Source of the DNA: Eledone cirrhosa
Lineage: Eukaryota
Length of the DNA: 64,000 nucleotides
Reading direction: 5' to 3'
Assembly: GCA_964016885.1 (NCBI GenBank)
Contig: OZ024743.1
Location: 199,082,001 to 199,146,000, forward strand
In this document: positions 30,877 to 59,543 of the stretch, piece after piece
How positions within the stretch are numbered: the first letter of the stretch is position 1
Layout of the letters: the number at the start of each line of letters is the position of its first letter
Translations under genes and position numbers: made by a program
Notes under the pieces: generated by a model
What the model was told of the DNA's origin: nothing
Databases searched by the model: none
What the model saw: only the letters and a program-made list of their open reading frames with translations

Positions 30877-31186
30877 GAATAGAATGAAACGAAATTTAAT
30901 TTCTCACTCTTAGTACGGCACTTACTTAAATGTAAGTATGTATGTATGTATACGTACATACATATATGTATACAGACGTACAGTAGTATGTATATATATA
31001 CATACATGCACACATATATATATATGCACGTATCGGTTGAGTGAGAAATGAAATTTCGTTTCATTCTATTCCATTTATCGTTTTCTGTGCGTCCGACCAA
31101 CTGAACTCACTCGATATCCAAATTAGGCTGCTCAGCCGTTAATATGCAAAAGGAAAGTATATAATTTCAGACGTTCAACCATCTGG

Positions 31187-31246
31187 CAGGAAGGTATACG
31201 ATGCTGACGATAGGTTAATAAGCTTGAAACTAGTACATCATTCCTG
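31187..31246 (+). ncRNA. Type I hammerhead ribozyme, array copy 1
   Basis: CAGGAA-ggtata-CGATG CTGACGA taggttaataagctt GAAAC ta GTA^CATCA TTCCTG; predicted cut after 31235. Confidence 0.75.
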
Positions 31247-31635
31247 TGTCAGTGTTGAACAAAAAGGTGACGTGGTTGCCTAAACACTGTACGGCGTAAT
31301 TCGGGCTGTTTGTTTGTTTACAAACAAACAAACCGAGCATTATAATAAATGTTCGGTAAACCGATACGTGCATATATATATGTGTGTGCATGTAGGTATA
31401 TATATATACATACTACTGTACGTCTGTATACATATATGTATGTACGTATAGATACATACATACTTACATTTAAGTAAGTGCCGTATAAGAGTGAGAAATG
31501 AAATTTCGTTTCATTCTATTCCATTTATCGTTTTCAGTCCGACCGACTGAACTCACTCGATATGCAAATTAGGCTGCTCAGCCGTTAATATGCACAAGGA
31601 AAGTATATAATTTCAGACGTTCAACCATCTGTCAA

Positions 31636-31690
31636 GGAAGGTATACGATGCTGACGATAGCTAATAAGCTTTAAACTAGTACATCGATCC
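31636..31690 (+). ncRNA. Hammerhead copy 2, core mutated (GAAA>TAAA), probably inactive
   Basis: CTGACGA at 31651, but TAAAC at 31672 removes the catalytic G12. Confidence 0.65.
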
Positions 31691-32062
31691 TGTGTTAGTG
31701 TTGAACAAAAAGGTGACGTGGTTGCCTAATCACTGCACGGCCTAATTCGGGCTCTTTGTTTGTTTACAAACAAACAAACCGAGCATTATAATAAATGTTC
31801 GGTAAACCGATACGTGCATATATATATGTGTGCATGTATGTCTATATATACATACTACTGTACGTCTGTATACATACATACATACTTACATTTAAGTAAG
31901 TGCCGTACTAAGAGTGAGAAATGAAATTTCGTTTCATTCTATTCCATTTATCGTTTTCGGTGCGCCCGGCCGACTGAACTCATTCGATATGCAAATTAGG
32001 CTGCTCAGCTGTTAATTTTCACAAGGAAAGTATATACTTTCAGACGTTCAACCATCTGGCAA

Positions 32063-32117
32063 GGAAGGTATACGATGCTGACGATAGCTAATAAGCTTGA
32101 AACTAGTACATCGTTCC
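32063..32117 (+). ncRNA. Type I hammerhead ribozyme, array copy 3 (intact)
   Basis: GGAA-ggtata-CGATG CTGACGA t AGCT aata AGCT t GAAAC ta GTA^CATCG TTCC; predicted cut after 32108. Confidence 0.85.
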
Positions 32118-32489
32118 TGTGTCAGTGTTGAACAAAAAGGTGACGTGGTTGCCTAATCACTGCACGGCCTAATTCGGGCTCTTTGTTTGTTTAGAAACAA
32201 ACAAACCGAGCATTATAATAAATGTTCGGTAAACCGATACGTGCATATATATATGTGTGCATGTATGTCTATATATACATACTACTGTACGTCTGTATAC
32301 ATACATACATACTTACATTTAAGTAAGTGCCGTACTAAGAGTGAGAAATGAAATTTCGTTTCATTCTATTCCATTTATCGTTTTCGGTGCGCCCGGGCGA
32401 CTGAACTCACTCTGTATGCAAATTAGGCTGCTCAGCCGTTAATATGCACAAGGAAAGTATATACTTTCAGACGTTCAACCATCTGGCAA

Positions 32490-32544
32490 GGAAGGTATAC
32501 GATGCTGACGATAGCTAATAAGCTTGAAACTAGTACATCGTTCC
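32490..32544 (+). ncRNA. Type I hammerhead ribozyme, array copy 4 (intact)
   Basis: Identical motif to copy 3; predicted cut after 32535. Confidence 0.85.
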
Positions 32545-32918
32545 TGTGTCAGTGTTGAACAAAAAGGTGACGTGGTTGCTTAAACACTGTACGGCGTAAT
32601 TCGGGCTGTTTGTTTGTTTACAAACAAACAAACCGAGCATTATAATAAATGTTCGGTAAACCGATACGTGCATATATATATATGTGTGCATGTATGTCTA
32701 TATATACATACTACTGTACGTCTGTATACATACATACATACTTACATTTAAGTAAGTGCCGTACTAAGAGTGAGAAATGAAATTTCGTTTCATTCTATTC
32801 CATTTATCGTTTTCGGTGCGCCCGGCCGACTGAACTCATTCGATATGCAAATTAGGCTGCTCAGCCGTTAATTTGCACAAGGAAAGTATATACTTTCAGA
32901 CGTTCAACCATCTGGCAA

Positions 32919-32973
32919 GGAAGCTATACGATGCTGACGATAGCTAATAAGCTTGAAACTAGTACATCGTTCC
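32919..32973 (+). ncRNA. Type I hammerhead ribozyme, array copy 5 (intact core)
   Basis: Same motif with bulge GCTATA; predicted cut after 32964. Confidence 0.85.
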
Positions 32974-33365
32974 TGTGTCAGTGTTGAACAAAAAGGTGAC
33001 GTGGTTGCTTAAACACTGTACGGCGTAATTCGGGCTGTTTGTTTGTTTACAAACAAACAAACCGAGCATTATAATAAATGTTCGGTAAACCGATACGTGC
33101 ATATATATATGTGTGCATGTATGTATATATATACATACTACTGTACGTCTGTATACATATATGTATGTACGTATAGATACATACATACTTACATTTAAGT
33201 AAGTGCCGTACTAAGAGTGAGAAATGAAATTTCGTTTCATTCTATTCCATTTATCGTTTTCGGTGCACCCGGGCGACTGAACTCACTCTATATGCAAATT
33301 AGGCTGCTCAGCCGTTAATATGCACAAGGAAAGTATATACTTTCAGACGTTCAATCATCTGGCAA

Positions 33366-33419
33366 GGAAGGTATACGATGCTGACGATAGCTAATAAGCT
33401 TGAAACTAGTATATGTTCC
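33366..33419 (+). ncRNA. Hammerhead copy 6, stem I weakened
   Basis: Core intact, but the 3' strand of stem I reads TATG instead of CATCG. Confidence 0.65.
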
Positions 33420-33637
33420 CGTGTCAGTGTTGAACAAAAAGGTGACGTGGTTGCCTAAACACTGTACGGCGTAATTCGGGCTGTTTGTTTGTTTACAAAC
33501 AAACAAACGGAGCATTATAATAAATGTTCGGTAAACCGATACGTGCATATATATGTGTGCATCTATATATATACATACTACTGTACGTCTGTATACATAT
33601 ATGTATGTACGTATACATACATATATATATATATATT

Positions 33638-45882: not shown

Positions 45883-46201
45883 GGGAGACATGATATGAAG
45901 CTTAAAAAACACTTGTGAGCAGTGAAGTTTTAAATCAACATATGAAAAATAAATTAAGATGGATGTATGAGATTGGGAAAAGGTGAGGGGGGGTAGGTAA
46001 GGAAGAGGAAGAAATAAGAGTAAAGGATGGTGGGGAGGAGTATAAGAAGGAAGGATGAGAGAGGAGGAGAGATGGGTGATAGAGAGAGAGAGATAGCCTT
46101 TACAACTGGGAGAAAATATTGTCTCACAGAGAGAAATTAAAAAGCCGCCAATATTTGTATTGCTTTATTGTGCTACAATAAAACTCACCTCCTACATATA
46201 T

Positions 46202-46517
46202 TTCATTTCATTTCATTTCATTTTACGTCCACTTTTCCCTGCTTTCAAGGGTGGGACGGGAACTGATTCTGGCTTGATTTCTACAGCTGGATGCCTTTCC
46301 TAACACCAACCTCGTTTACAGTGAGTGCTGGGTGCTTTTTTGCCGTGGCACCTCCACGACCACTTTACAGTGGAATGATAGGGACCCCAGTCCCTATCAT
46401 CTCATTTCTACAGCTGAGTAAACTGGAGCAATGTGAAATAAAGTGTCTTGCTCAAGGAAACAACACATCACCCGGTCTGAGAATTGAACTCGCAACCTTT
46501 CGATTGCAAGGCCAATG
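46202..46517 (-). mobile_element. CORE/Meta-type SINE with RTE-derived tail, head truncated
   Basis: Near-identical to the reverse complement of 59207-59543 but lacks the first ~25 nt of the head. Confidence 0.85.
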
Positions 46518-46529
46518 ACGAATGGACTA

Positions 46530-46591
<62 letters not shown>

Positions 46592-46594
<3 letters not shown>

Positions 46595-49500
46595 CAAAAT
46601 ACGGGGATCTTATTTAAAACTTACATTCTCGCTAACTACCCAATATCCATCCGACCCGCCCAGATGCACCACCCGCCCCACGCACCACCATTATTACGTG
46701 GACCAATCATAAGTCAGAGGCCTATACTATCACTTACCTGGTTGCCTTTCGATATGATGGATGGACTACGGAATCCTGGAGAGTTGAAAAGAAAAATCTG
46801 GAGGCTCAGTGACATTGCCAAAGATAAAGACAAATTCACCTCGTGGACGAGAATGCAAGCACTCCTCCTCTTTGTTTCGGCCGCGGATGGCTAACATAAC
46901 CATATAGCCCCCCCCCCGCGCCCCACCGCTCCCACCATCCAAACTCAATCCAAAACTTCAGAGTTGGTACCATGAATGTAGGTACCTTAAAGGGTCGCTC
47001 TAACGAGGTTGTAGAAATGCTTGAACGTAAGGAGGTCGATGTTTGTTGTATTCAAGAGACCAGGTGGAGGGGTGGGTCTGCTAGATTCATCGTGAGTAAA
47101 GAACGATGCTATAAGCTTTTCTGGGTGGGAAATGACAATGGGCTGGGTGGAGTAGGAATCATGGTAGAAGAAAAGTGGGCAGATAAGATAATAGACGTAA
47201 ATAGAGTGAACGATAGAATAATTAAAATAAGACTTGTCCTCAATAGAACTACGGTGACAGTAATATCTGCGTACGCACCCCAATCCGGACTGCCCAGCAC
47301 TATAAAAGACAGATTCTATGAGACACTGATGCTTACTACCTCCCAAATAACCAACACTGACTATATAATTATTGCAGGCGACCTAAATGGTCACGTTGGA
47401 CAACATTGTGACGGCTATGACGGAATCCATGGAGGCTATGGGTTTGGTATTAGAAATGAGGAAGGCTCCAGAATCCTGGAATTCTGTGACGCAAATAACC
47501 TAACTATCTGTAACACTAACTTCAAAAAACGAGACAATCACCTGATCACCTATAGATCGGGGGAACACACAAGCCAGGTAGATTATATCCTTACCAGGAG
47601 ACGTGACAGAGTGTCTGTTGTAAACACTAAATCCCTTCCCCATGAAGAATGCACGTCTCAACATAGACTCATAATCAGCGACCTCATAGTCAGGACGAGA
47701 CGTATTCGACAACAGAAGAGGACTATCCTCAGGAGAAAAATATGGAAATTAAAGGACCCCACAACCAGTCATAGATTTAAAAGCATATTACTTGATGCTT
47801 TTGATAGTAAGGAAGAGCAATTAGAGTCGTACAATATAGAGGAACAGTGGGAATTCCTGAAAGATAACCTGCTGAAGACGACAGATGAAACCTGTGGCTG
47901 GAGCAGGCCTATAGGCAGGAGGAGAGTAACTTGGTGGTGGAACAGTAAGGTGGAGAGGTCAATCAAGGCCAAAAAGCAGGCTTGGAAAGCATGGCGGGAT
48001 GGGGGAAGTAGAGAAGTCTATCAAGTGGCCAGGAGGGAAGCTAGGAGACAATAGCAGAGGAAAGAAAGTTCAAGCATGTTCTACAACGCGAGGACCAAAA
48101 ACGTGAGGTGTTCAGGATTGCTAGGCAATGTGTCAAGGAAAACAGTGATATTGTCGGGGAGAAGTGTGTCCTAAATGATGATGGTGTACTTGCCATCACT
48201 GACGCTGATAAGAAGGTAGCTTGGAAGTGTCACTACGAAAGGCTACTAAATGAGGAGAATAATTGGGAGAAAGACAGTCTCCCCCGCATCGACCCAATAG
48301 AGGGACCAGCAGTGTAAGTTGAAGGTAGTATAATAAGTAAGGCGATCAAAGACATGAAGACGGGCAAGGCGGCCGGGCCTTCGGAAATAGTTGCCGAAAT
48401 ACTGAAAGCATCTGGAACGGTCGGACACACTATGGTCACCCGGATAGTAAACCAAGTCATACAGAATGGGGTCGTTCCGAAGGACTGGCGCAGCAGCATC
48501 ATCATTAACTGCTACAAGGGTAAAGGTGATGCCCTAGATAGGGAAAACTATAGAGGCATTAAATTAATTGACCAGATCATGAAGGTCACAGAAAAAGCAA
48601 TAGCGCAACTAATCAGAGAGCGAATTGATCTAGACGAAATGCAGTTCGAGTTTGTGTCAGGTAAAAGTACAACAGACGCTCTTTTCATTGTACGACAACT
48701 ACAGGAGAAGTACCTAGCTAAAAGTAAACCCCTATACTTAGCTTTTGTTGACTTGGAGAAAGCCTTTGACAGAGTACCCCATTCGATTATCTGGTGGGCC
48801 CTTAGAAAACTAGGTGTTGATGAATGGCTTGTGAGAGCTATACAAGCCATGTATAAAGAAACAGCCAGCAAGGTTAGAATTAACAACGAATATAGTGAAG
48901 AGTTTAGCGTAAAAGTTGGTGTTTTACGCTAATAGCTGAATCAATGGCTGAACTAGAGAACACATTCCAAACATGGAAGCATGGCCTAGAATCAAAAGGC
49001 CTTAAAGTTAACTTGTCTAAGACTAAAGTTCTAGTTTGTAGGAAGGAAAATAGGGCACCGGTCCCATCTGGGAAATGGCCATGCTCAGTGTGTAAGAAAG
49101 GAGTAGGTATAAACTCCATTTTATGTCCCAAATGCAAAGTATGGGTACATAAAAGATGTAGTGGGATCACAGGTAAACTATCTAAGAATATAGATTTTCT
49201 ATGTGACCGGTGCTCTGGTGCAATAAGTAGCAGCAAGTGCCCACAGAATACTAACTCATTCCATTGCACAGATGGTTCTATAGAAATAGTGGACAGCTTC
49301 CGTTACCTGGGTGATAAAATCAGCAGTGAGGGAGGGTGCTCTGAAAGTACAGTAGCTAGGGTCAGAACGGGATGGAAAAAGTTCAGAGAGCTTATACCAC
49401 TATTGGCCGCTAAAGGGTTCTCTCTAAAAATGAAAGGCAGGCTGTATGATGCCTGCATACGAACAGCAATGTTACATGGCAGTGAGACCTGGGCATTGTG

Positions 49501-50252
49501 TGCAGAGGATATACGCAGACTGGAGAGGAACGAAGCTTGCATGCTTCGCTGGATGTGTAATAGTAACATACGTGAACGGCAAAGCATAAACGTACTAAGG
49601 GAGAAATTAGAAATAAGAGGGATCAGAGGTTGTTTACTCGAGAGAAGACTACGTTGGTATGGTCACGTGATGCGCATGAAAGACGACAGCTGCATAAAAA
49701 AGTGCAGGGCAATAAAAATAGACGGTAGCCACGGAGTAGGCAGACCCAGAAAAATCTGGGATGATTGATAAATTCCGACCTCACACACTTACACCTCTCC
49801 AAGACAATGTCACTGGACCGAGAGCTTTGGCGCTACACAGTAATAGAGAAGACCCGCCTTACCTAAGTACAAAGTGAAACCTACTACAGTCAGTAGGCAC
49901 CTCTAACAAAATACACCCCGTCCCACTACCCCCACCCCATCCACACCACCCCTTCAATGTAAAGTTATGTTGGTGTCACAACATCCAGCCCGAAACAAAT
50001 GAGGTCATGTAGGCGTCACGACAAAAAAATACAGTCCACGCTGTAATGTGGCCGTGTAGGCAACACGGTAAAAACCTCCCAGCCCCTCACTGTAAATGTG
50101 GTTGGTGTTAGGAAGGGCATCCAGCCGTAGAAAACCCGCCAGACAATCCTATGCGAGCAAGACAACCACACTTGCCTCAAGTGGGAAAACCCCCGTCCAA
50201 ACCCATGCTAGCGTGGAATATGGACGTTAAACGATAATGATGATGATGATGA

Positions 50253-51432: not shown

Positions 51433-51935
51433 ACATATATCATCATCCTCGCCATTTCAACATCTGCTTACCCTGATATCAAGCGTTGGACAATTCTCCA
51501 TACACCAAGTCAGTCCTGAAGCAAGGTTACTGACTTTCCAGATGTCCTATGAGTCTGTTCTATTGCATGCAGATTCTACCAAGCACACAAGAGCAGGTAC
51601 ACATGACTGAAGGCTCCTGTCAATTCTTTGCTGCACAAGCTTTCTATGGTTGGATGTGTTTCTTATCACCAACCTCTTTACAGCTTGTACTGGGAGCATT
51701 TATTATCTAGATTACCAACAATAGAGAGTTTGCCATACCATGACATGACTAGAGAGTCCTTTTGACCATTTTATTTTTTTTATGATTATGGGAACACTGA
51801 AGTGTAGGAGGTGGAACACAACAGTGTTAGAAATAGGGTGGTGTAGGATGAAGGGAATAGAGAGGTCATAGGCGGGGTGCAGAGTGTAGCTACTACAATG
51901 CAATTGTGGGATGTCTAATGTCTTTATATATATAT

Positions 51936-52483
51936 AATAAAAAAGAAAATTTTGCTCTACATGGCTGAATACAATAAATGTAATCTGAGTTTTTCGAATA
52001 TTAATAATGACATTCGATTCGTTTGCAATTATGCAAACAAGCCTCAATTTTTGTATTCAGCCATGTAGAGCGAAATTTTCTTTTTTATTTGAATTTGGCA
52101 AGGCCGGCCATTTATCATTCGTATACAAGAAACTGGCTGGCCAGTCTGCTGATATGCAAATCTGGCTGATCAGTGGATCTGCTAATATGCAGATCTGACT
52201 GATCAGCCAGTCTGCTAGTATGCCAATCAGGCCTATCAGTGACTGTGTATTTTTGAAAATAGCATATACTTTCATTAGCTCTGACAGTTTGGTAGGTGAA
52301 CAGTGAGCTGTACTGATGAAGGGTGATACCCAGAAACATTAGTGTCTGCAGTTCTGTTTACATACCAGCTTAAGAGCAAGAATGAAGTGTTCATTCTACT
52401 GACATGGCTATAAAATTGAGGCTCGTTTGCATAATTGCAAATGAATCAAATGTTTTTATTAATATTCGAAAAACTCAGATTAC

Positions 52484-52489
<6 letters not shown>
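51936..52489 (+). mobile_element. Second hammerhead-bearing element: 438-nt monomer (52051-52489) preceded by an inverted tail+head segment
   Basis: 51936-51974 is the reverse complement of 52051-52089; 51974-52051 is the reverse complement of 52412-52489. Internal ~33-bp repeats at 52133-52240; (TA)n on both sides. Confidence 0.8.
52290..52367 (+). ncRNA. Canonical type I hammerhead ribozyme
   Basis: TGGTAgGTGAACAgtGAGCTGTA CTGATGA a GGGT gat ACCC a GAAAC attagt GTC^TGCAGTTC TGTTTAC a TACCA; predicted cut after C52346. Confidence 0.9.
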
Positions 52490-52542
<53 letters not shown>

Positions 52543-52545
<3 letters not shown>

Positions 52546-53255: not shown

Positions 53256-53652
53256 AAGGTGCATGGCTTAGTGGTTAGAGCATTGGGCTTGCAATTGAAA
53301 GGGTGTGAGTTCAATTCTCAGACCGGGTGATGTGTTGTTTCTTTGAGCAAGTTACTTTATTTCACATTGCTCCAGTTTACTCAGCTGTAGAAATGAGATG
53401 ATAGGACTGGGGTCCCTATCATTCCACTGAAAAGTGGACATGTAGGCGCCACAGAAAAAAAGCACTCAGCACTCACTGTAAATGAGGTTGGTGTTAGGAA
53501 GGGCATCCAGTTGTACAAATCAAACCAGAATCAGTTCCCGTATGAGCAACACAAGGTCAGCCGACCGAACACTGCCCACAACAGGACAACCCGTCTAACC
53601 CATGCTAGCGTGGAAGAACGGACGTAAAACGGTGATAATGATAATGATGACG
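53256..53652 (+). mobile_element. CORE/Meta-type SINE with long RTE-derived tail
   Basis: tRNA-like head (TGGCTTAGTGG; GAGTTCAATTCTC), core, and tail ending CCCATGCTAGCGTGGAAGAACGGACGTAAAAC plus GAT-type repeats. Confidence 0.85.
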
Positions 53653-59206: not shown

Positions 59207-59543
59207 GGCACATGGCTTAGTGGTTAGAGCATTGGGCTTGCAATCGAAAGGTTGTGAGTTCAATTCTCAGACCGGGTGATGTGTTGTTTCCTTGAGCAAG
59301 ACACTTTATTTCACATTGCTTCAGTTTACTCAGCTGTAGAAATGAGATGATAGGGACTGGGGTCCCTATCATTCCACTGCAAAGTGGTCGTGGAGGTGCC
59401 ATGGCAAAAAAGCACCCAGCACTCACTGTAAATGAGGTTGGTGTTAGGAAGGGCATCCAGCTGTAGAAATCAAGCCAGAATCAGTTCCCGTCCCACCCTT
59501 GCAAACAGGGAAAAGCAGACGTAAAATGAAATGATGAATGATG
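59207..59543 (+). mobile_element. CORE/Meta-type SINE with RTE-derived tail
   Basis: Full head, core, one internal unit and tail; lies between (TA)n tracts. Confidence 0.85.

What the first reader, a model, noticed from the sequence alone, without database searches (positions are those of the whole stretch)
51936..52489. Second, unrelated 438-nt hammerhead element whose inverted 5' piece preserves a tail-to-head junction
Seen: it resembles a MITE with ~78-bp TIRs, but the layout is B'-A-[B...hammerhead...A']. Read on the minus strand, 51936-52051 joins the END of the monomer directly to its START (...CAGATTACATTTA|TTGTATTCAGCC...). That junction is absent from the single forward copy. The monomer holds a textbook CUGAUGA/GAAAC/GUC hammerhead in a long hairpin (~52268-52389). 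Inference: the copied template was circular or multimeric, so this is a fossil of a ~438-nt circular ribozyme RNA from a second family.
Basis: partly seen in the sequence, partly recalled or inferred. Interest (0 to 1): 0.88.

Follow-up and report, generated by a model that had tools for sequence, protein, structure and literature searches.

The report
Hammerhead passenger of Penelope-like retrotransposons
This is one of thousands of copies of a short non-coding repeat with a predicted self-cutting RNA motif, likely pasted into TA repeats by a Penelope-like retrotransposon; its flipped front piece is a known mark of that machinery, and the copies point to a linear RNA template rather than the circle first proposed.

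Summary
The layout is real: 51936-52051 is an inverted copy of the unit's last 78 nt plus its first 38 nt, and a type I hammerhead core lies at 52307-52352. But the 'tail-to-head junction' is ordinary internal sequence (2,649 exact genomic matches). Copies have two fixed 3' ends about 37 nt apart, running into (TA)n, and variable 5' ends; 96 of 99 classifiable inverted insertions use one end of each kind. That is the published signature of Penelope-like elements (PLEs): an inverted truncated copy plus a 30-40 nt 'tail'. It is not a MITE. It is also distantly homologous to the window's first hammerhead family, not unrelated. A circular template is not supported. No three-core array was found, and 0 of 34 two-hammerhead copies extend past unit position 90 on the second lap, against 52% on the first. 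A small excess of 5' ends at the predicted cut suggests occasional self-cleavage. Best reading: a non-autonomous PLE passenger (animal retrozyme type) likely copied from a linear transcript of 1.5-1.9 units. The partner PLE was not identified, and no RNA data were available.

The parts
51925..51936 (.). left (TA)n target remnant
   Evidence: sequence
51936..51973 (-). 'tail' of the inverted arm: unit m1-m38, ending at fixed 3' end B
   Evidence: end B in 135 of 403 segments
51974..52051 (-). body of the inverted, 5'-truncated arm (unit m361-m438)
   Evidence: 78 nt, 94% complementary to 52412-52489
52045..52052 (.). head-to-head joint of the two arms, about 7 nt of overlap
   Evidence: L001: arms overlap at 1616-1622
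52052..52489 (+). forward arm, about one 438-nt unit, ending at fixed 3' end A
   Evidence: 22 differences from the family majority
52140..52241 (+). three 33-nt repeats forming a long hairpin; octamer ATGCAAAT at 52154-52161, also conserved about 90 nt upstream of the core in the related family (possible promoter element; role recalled, untested)
52268..52389 (+). long hairpin that carries the hammerhead at its tip
52307..52352 (+). type I hammerhead core with short self-complementary helix III; predicted cut after C52346 (m295)
   Evidence: exact core 25-mer 1,524 times in the genome
52355..52370 (+). near-palindrome (m304-m319) where the two arms of other copies often join
52455..52472 (+). 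site (m404-m421) that is a SINE insertion hot spot in other copies; empty here
52486..52543 (.). right (TA)n target remnant
   Evidence: sequence

Best explanation
The element is a non-coding 438-nt repeat family with a hammerhead motif, two fixed 3' ends and inverted, truncated arms in TA repeats, likely copied into the genome by the reverse transcriptase and endonuclease of a Penelope-like element. Inferred cycle: a source copy of 1.5-1.9 units is transcribed as a linear RNA. A PLE protein nicks both strands of a (TA)n target and primes reverse transcription at two internal RNA sites, end A (m438) on one strand and end B (about m37) on the other; the 37 nt between them are the 'tail'. Each cDNA stops at a variable point, and the two cDNA ends join head to head over a few matching bases, giving the flipped front piece. 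The hammerhead likely cuts only a minority of transcripts, so most cDNAs run through it. Shown here: the anatomy, end usage, copy lengths and shared variants. Inferred: the enzyme, the RNA, its linearity and the cleavage.
For: Two fixed 3' ends: 158 A and 135 B among 403 segments, 264 of those 293 running into TA-rich sequence; 117 head-to-head joints and 0 tail-to-tail (loci were found by end-related patterns, so the tallies are partly built in). One A plus one B in 96 of 99 classifiable inverted insertions, P = 3e-25 against 0.5; the partner end flips with the pattern used (38:1 versus 2:31). Shorter arm 22-520 nt in 76 insertions. The same anatomy is described for PLEs (PMC8557442; PMC3846280), and the tail equals the spacing of two RT start sites in vitro with both strands extended (PMC11167929). 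The genome holds abundant PLE-type ORFs whose copies also carry a hammerhead-like core and end at two sites before TA runs. Arms of one insertion share subfamily alleles (71 of 72 typed pairs) and rare variants (0.0032 per site versus 0.0005 shuffled, maximum 0.0010). Finite template: truncation rate 0.017/nt over m261-90 on lap 2 versus 0.0038 on lap 1, while lap 2 below the cut is normal at 0.0058 versus 0.0051; 0 of 34 two-core copies pass m90 versus 66 of 127 on lap 1. Cleavage trace: 5' ends at m296-300 number 12 versus 4.2 expected, and 10 versus 4.0 after removing palindrome joints.
Against: No autonomous partner sharing the unit's sequence was found: 30 PLE loci of one family gave only weak AT-rich hits, and other PLE families were not sampled. 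Pfam and PDB did not name the PLE ORF; its label rests on the Atlas search and recalled motifs. Unlike the anole PLE, whose start sites are not homologous to the target, both ends here are AT-rich and blend into TA. The cleavage excess is small, not significant in arms without a partner (3 versus 1.2), and adjoins a palindrome that also attracts joints. The lap-2 rate in the position-ordered sample rests on 7 events. Shared variants could come from conversion between arms after insertion, and unshared rare variants far outnumber them (931 versus 49). How 1.9-unit sources arise is unexplained. No RNA evidence.
Confidence: 0.68

Rival explanations
1. Same PLE machinery, but the template is a 438-nt circle made by double hammerhead cleavage and ligation. 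The reverse transcriptase laps the circle.
For: 40 of 403 segments exceed one unit; subfamily alleles stay linked across the cut site (m196-m365 r = 0.85) and between laps (m359 r = 0.91); laps share rare variants (0.0022 per site); no long genomic source array was found; mussel, coral and axolotl retrozymes form circles (PMC7229834); the related first family reaches six units.
Against: A circle has no end, yet none of 403 segments reaches two units, 0 of 34 two-core copies pass m90, and truncation rises only upstream of the second hammerhead, not after the first full lap. Linkage and shared variants are equally expected from a homogeneous linear source. Selective later loss of long copies is unlikely because arrays of the related family persist in this assembly.
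Confidence: 0.22
2. A MITE of a TA-targeting DNA transposon with 78-bp terminal inverted repeats.
For: 78-nt inverted arms and TA on both sides of this copy.
Against: Arm length varies from 22 to 520 nt; the two ends differ in 96 of 99 insertions; many copies have one arm only or exceed one unit; 5' truncation is variable.
Confidence: 0.01
3. The inverted arm arises by fold-back: one cDNA primes on itself and is copied back, or the hairpin forms after insertion.
For: Joints often sit on palindromes; arms share variants; self-priming was proposed for Penelope palindromes (PMC3846280).
Against: Fold-back from the tail-bearing arm needs that arm to be the longer one, true in only 31 of 76 insertions and false in this copy. 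Fold-back from the A arm cannot supply the tail.
Confidence: 0.05
4. Copies are mobilised by a LINE or by a rolling-circle DNA transposon (Helentron/HINE-like), not by a PLE.
For: No PLE partner was identified; microsatellite insertion and sub-terminal inverted repeats are recalled traits of such elements.
Against: Two alternative internal 3' ends, strict A+B pairing and overlapping inverted arms are described for PLEs; the genome's SINE shows ordinary LINE-type insertions with target duplications instead; there is no fixed 5' end.
Confidence: 0.04

Closest known systems
Animal non-LTR retrozymes (Cervera and de la Pena 2020, PMC7229834; Li et al. bioRxiv 10.64898/2026.07.22.740005)
   Same: Non-coding unit of a few hundred nt, low GC, type I hammerhead with short palindromic helix III, thousands of copies, PLEs in the same genome.
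   Different: Almost all copies are dispersed and under two units; only 36 exact two-core places and no three-core array. Circles untested here. The inverted-arm-plus-tail insertion signature is not discussed in the passages read ('inverted' occurs 0 times in PMC7229834; once in the preprint). No pLTR homology to a partner was found.
Endonuclease-bearing Penelope-like elements (Penelope/Poseidon, Neptune, Naiad; PMC8557442, PMC3846280, PMC11167929)
   Same: Partial tandems, 5' truncation, inverted 5'-truncated copy, 30-40 nt tail at one end only, (TA)n targets, start sites downstream of the hammerhead.
   Different: No ORF. Both start sites are AT-rich and resemble the target. A small genomic excess of ends at the cut site, whereas the anole element showed no reads at its cut site and used uncut RNA in vitro.
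First hammerhead family of this window (30878-33620)
   Same: Distant homologue with the same order of octamer, hammerhead, hairpins and two 3' ends; inverted arms with one end of each kind.
   Different: 427-nt unit, tail about 70 nt, 11,409 exact cores, arrays of up to six units.

Membership tests
Type I hammerhead ribozyme | Conserved core (CUGAnGA, GAAA, GUH) with helices I-III | tested here: met
   core kept while stems differ completely but still pair in the related family
Type I hammerhead ribozyme | Purine-pyrimidine pair closing helix II; match to curated models | tested here: not met
   A-A mismatch at the base of helix II; no Rfam hammerhead hit
Type I hammerhead ribozyme | Self-cleavage | not testable with these tools
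   only an indirect excess of 5' ends at m296-300
Non-autonomous PLE derivative | Inverted 5'-truncated copy with a 30-40 nt tail at one end | tested here: met
   96 of 99 insertions; tail 37-38 nt
Non-autonomous PLE derivative | Variable 5' truncation, partial tandems, microsatellite targets | tested here: met
Non-autonomous PLE derivative | Sequence shared with the pLTR of an autonomous partner | tested here: inconclusive
   no convincing match in 30 loci of one PLE family; other families not sampled
Animal non-LTR retrozyme | Tandem units each with a hammerhead (dimers to multimers) | tested here: inconclusive
   36 two-core places, none with three cores, longest 823 nt; the preprint allows monomer shares from 0 to 1
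Animal non-LTR retrozyme | Expressed as linear and circular monomer RNA | not testable with these tools
   no RNA run listed
Animal non-LTR retrozyme | Circle serves as the transposition template | tested here: not met
   indirect: copy lengths are capped below two units
MITE | Fixed-length symmetric terminal inverted repeats | tested here: not met

The most novel reading that the evidence does not exclude
This family is a genome-wide natural record of Penelope-type integration: each inverted insertion uses the two start sites once each, copies both arms from one source RNA, and uses a mostly uncut linear template of under two units. That would give direct structural evidence that PLEs mobilise animal retrozymes and show that at least one family spreads without the circular intermediate of the standard model, while its relative in the same genome forms long arrays. 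A conserved octamer-based promoter may set the template's 5' limit.
Probability: 0.4. Interest if true: 0.62.

Novelty: new member of a known kind. Interest (0 to 1): 0.44.

Why it matters
How PLEs make their inverted, tailed insertions, and whether animal retrozymes really transpose through circles, are open questions in the papers read (PMC8557442, PMC7229834, the 2026 preprint). A short family with thousands of copies lets both be tested by counting, and gives a compact RNA substrate for the published in vitro PLE assay. The element itself is a further member of a known class.

Tried and rejected
1) Rfam: no hammerhead hit for either family. 2) Chimeric 'SINE-headed' subfamily: rejected. 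The SINE has 52,282 exact matches elsewhere and sits at m404 with variable target duplications, variable truncation and tandem repeats, in all three subfamilies, so these are independent later insertions; SINE differences between laps or arms say nothing about the template. 3) Random template jumping between unrelated cut monomers: rejected, linkage is unbroken across the cut. 4) First estimate of the 5' end peak (19 versus 5.9) was inflated by joints on a palindrome counted twice; redone. 5) Partner search: L061 was fetched hoping for an ORF between two junction matches 2.5 kb apart; it held two separate copies and an unrelated PLE fragment. 6) Pfam and PDB searches of PLE ORFs were blank. 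7) No RNA holder listed; contigs of 4 of 13 listed runs were laid and show presence only. 8) Target duplications could not be read inside TA runs. 9) Paper searches for cephalopod retrozymes, PLE twin priming, PLE-mobilised SINEs and the newt promoter gave nothing pertinent; this library lacks most subscription papers.

Full report
Setting. The window lies on contig C4 of a 3.0-Gb animal assembly. The AT-rich, (TA)n-rich sequence and the SINEs recall octopus genomes; that label is recalled and untested. Unit coordinates m1-m438 refer to window 52052-52489.

Observation. The minus strand of 51936-52051 is the unit's last 78 nt joined to its first 38 nt, and both ends of the insertion run into (TA)n. 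A type I hammerhead core lies at 52307-52352 with the predicted cut after C52346 = m295. It departs from the textbook: A-A closes helix II, helix III is 3 bp and self-complementary (two copies pair at -8.8 kcal/mol), and the active-like fold is -38.1 against -44.3 kcal/mol for the free fold. Rfam found no hammerhead. A short palindromic helix III that works as a dimer is described for metazoan and PLE hammerheads (PMC4209133, passages).

The family. The element gave 3,523 first-look candidates, of which 40 were scored. Exact counts: junction 25-mer 2,649, hammerhead core 25-mer 1,524, end A followed by TA 857, all with reversed-pattern controls of 0. Long segments among the 30 best hits average 96.6% identity to their majority. 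Contigs from two other coded organism labels hold parts of it at lower identity.

Ends. I mapped 210 loci from contig C1, taken in position order from pattern hits (7 of them picked for paired hits), giving 403 unique segments. 3' ends: 158 at A (m430-m6), 135 at B (m18-m47), 60 interrupted by a SINE, 50 elsewhere. 264 of the 293 A/B ends run into TA-rich sequence. There were 117 head-to-head joints and none tail-to-tail. Because the patterns lay at or near the ends, these tallies are partly built in; the pairing is not. Across 270 loci there were 145 head-to-head insertions; 46 had an unclassifiable end and were dropped; 96 of the other 99 have one A and one B end (P = 3e-25). Loci found by the junction had A+B 38 times and B+B once; loci found by end A had A+B 31 times and A+A twice. 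The shorter arm ranges from 22 to 520 nt in 76 SINE-free A+B insertions, so the 78-nt 'TIR' is peculiar to this copy, and the forward arm being one unit long is a coincidence of truncation.

What is known. [quoted passage not shown] For the anole PLE the tail is the stretch between two internal RT start sites, both target strands are nicked and extended, and uncut RNA is the main substrate (PMC11167929, parts 1-2 of 4). So the one-end rule is qualitatively in print; the count here is new only as a number. Animal retrozymes are expressed as circles and were proposed to use PLEs (PMC7229834, passages and Discussion); a 2026 preprint supports this by co-occurrence and pLTR homology in 35 genomes, none a mollusc (parts 1-3 of 5). 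No supplements were read; they may list similar families.

Autonomous elements. A PLE-like fragment in L061 had 71,396 first-look candidates, 150 scored. One 699-residue frame shows RT and GIY-YIG motifs and a cysteine motif that I recall as Neptune-type; Atlas neighbours score 0.96-0.98 and carry HTH_animal, GIY-YIG or RVT_1 on part of their members; Pfam and PDB were blank. These copies have their own hammerhead-like core and end at two sites before TA runs, but share no convincing sequence with the unit. The partner remains unknown.

One source for both arms. Arms of one insertion agree in subfamily in 71 of 72 and 63 of 65 pairs typed on both sides, out of 145. They share rare variants at 0.0032 per site against 0.0005 for shuffled pairs, though 931 rare variants are unshared against 49 shared. 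Conversion between arms after insertion could contribute. Fold-back from the tail arm fits only 31 of 76 insertions.

Circle or line. For a circle: copies exceed one unit (40 of 403), linkage holds across the cut and between laps, and no long source array was found. Against: none of 403 segments reaches 876 nt; the gapped two-core pattern found 36 places and no run of three cores; all 36 were mapped, two near-identical repeats were dropped, and 0 of 34 pass m90 upstream of the second core, where 66 of 127 first-lap arms do. In 273 position-ordered arms the truncation rate per nt is 0.0051 (lap 1 below the cut), 0.0038 (lap 1, m261-90), 0.0058 (lap 2 below the cut) and 0.017 (lap 2, m261-90; 7 events, 95% interval 0.007-0.035). 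Completing a lap costs nothing, so strand displacement does not explain the rise; the template appears to end. The related family keeps arrays of up to six units in the same assembly, which makes collapse or loss an unlikely cause, though not excluded. 5' ends at m296-300 are 12 against 4.2 expected (10 against 4.0 without palindrome pairs; 3 against 1.2, not significant, in partnerless arms), and the stronger hairpin at m108-158 shows no excess. I read this as occasional cleavage of a mostly uncut linear transcript. Circles may still form as a by-product; nothing here tests that.

Relation to the first family. The array at 30878-33620 aligns with the unit upstream (score 46, shuffle maximum 41) and downstream (47, maximum 40) of the core, 0 of 1000 shuffles each. 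Both keep ATGCAAAT 89-93 nt upstream of the core. Its identity as the snRNA-gene octamer, and a similar promoter in newt satellite 2, are recalled; my search did not retrieve a source.

SINE hot spot. 60 of 403 segments are interrupted by a tRNA-type SINE, mostly at m404-421 (30 of the loci were chosen for it); the exact junction occurs 934 times. These are independent later insertions.

Verdict. A real, high-copy, non-autonomous hammerhead element with the PLE insertion signature: about 0.9 for PLE mobilisation, about 0.68 for that plus a linear sub-dimer template, about 0.22 for a circular template. Known kind, useful mechanistic record.

Noticed in passing
window 30878-33620: First hammerhead family: about six tandem 427-nt units with an inverted, tailed front piece; 11,409 exact cores genome-wide, two fixed 3' ends about 70 nt apart, arrays of 2-5 cores among the first 100 hits. 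Better candidate for a rolling-circle template.
   Followed up: partly
unit m404-421 (window 52455-52472); e.g. L028:1285-1473, L216, L226, L239: A tRNA-type SINE (52,282 exact 26-mer matches) has inserted at the same base of this element at least 934 times, sometimes twice in a row or in both arms; an unusually strong single-site preference beside ATT-rich targets elsewhere. Cause unexplained.
   Followed up: partly
L181-L210, e.g. L190:190-2286: Abundant autonomous PLE-type family with its own hammerhead-like core and two 3' ends about 90-100 nt apart before TA runs.
   Followed up: partly
L187:699 (+) and L193:566 (-): Two further hammerhead-like cores of other families in the flanks.
   Followed up: no
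window 52154-52161 and 31562, 31989, 32416, 32845, 33292: Octamer ATGCAAAT kept at the same distance from the hammerhead in both families; three variants in the 33-nt repeats of the family majority.
   Followed up: partly
unit m25-m48: Second excess of 5' ends (15 versus 5.9 expected) at the position of end B on the previous lap; unexplained.
   Followed up: no
G000:C3:17746487-17756086 (L347-L349): Three near-identical two-core copies about 2-4 kb apart, within a larger local duplication.
   Followed up: no
window 59213-59270 and about 53270-53330: tRNA-like heads of a SINE; the only Rfam hit in the window is the first.
   Followed up: no
window 46000-50000: GC-richer, purine-skewed stretch that may be a LINE ORF; not examined.
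   Followed up: no
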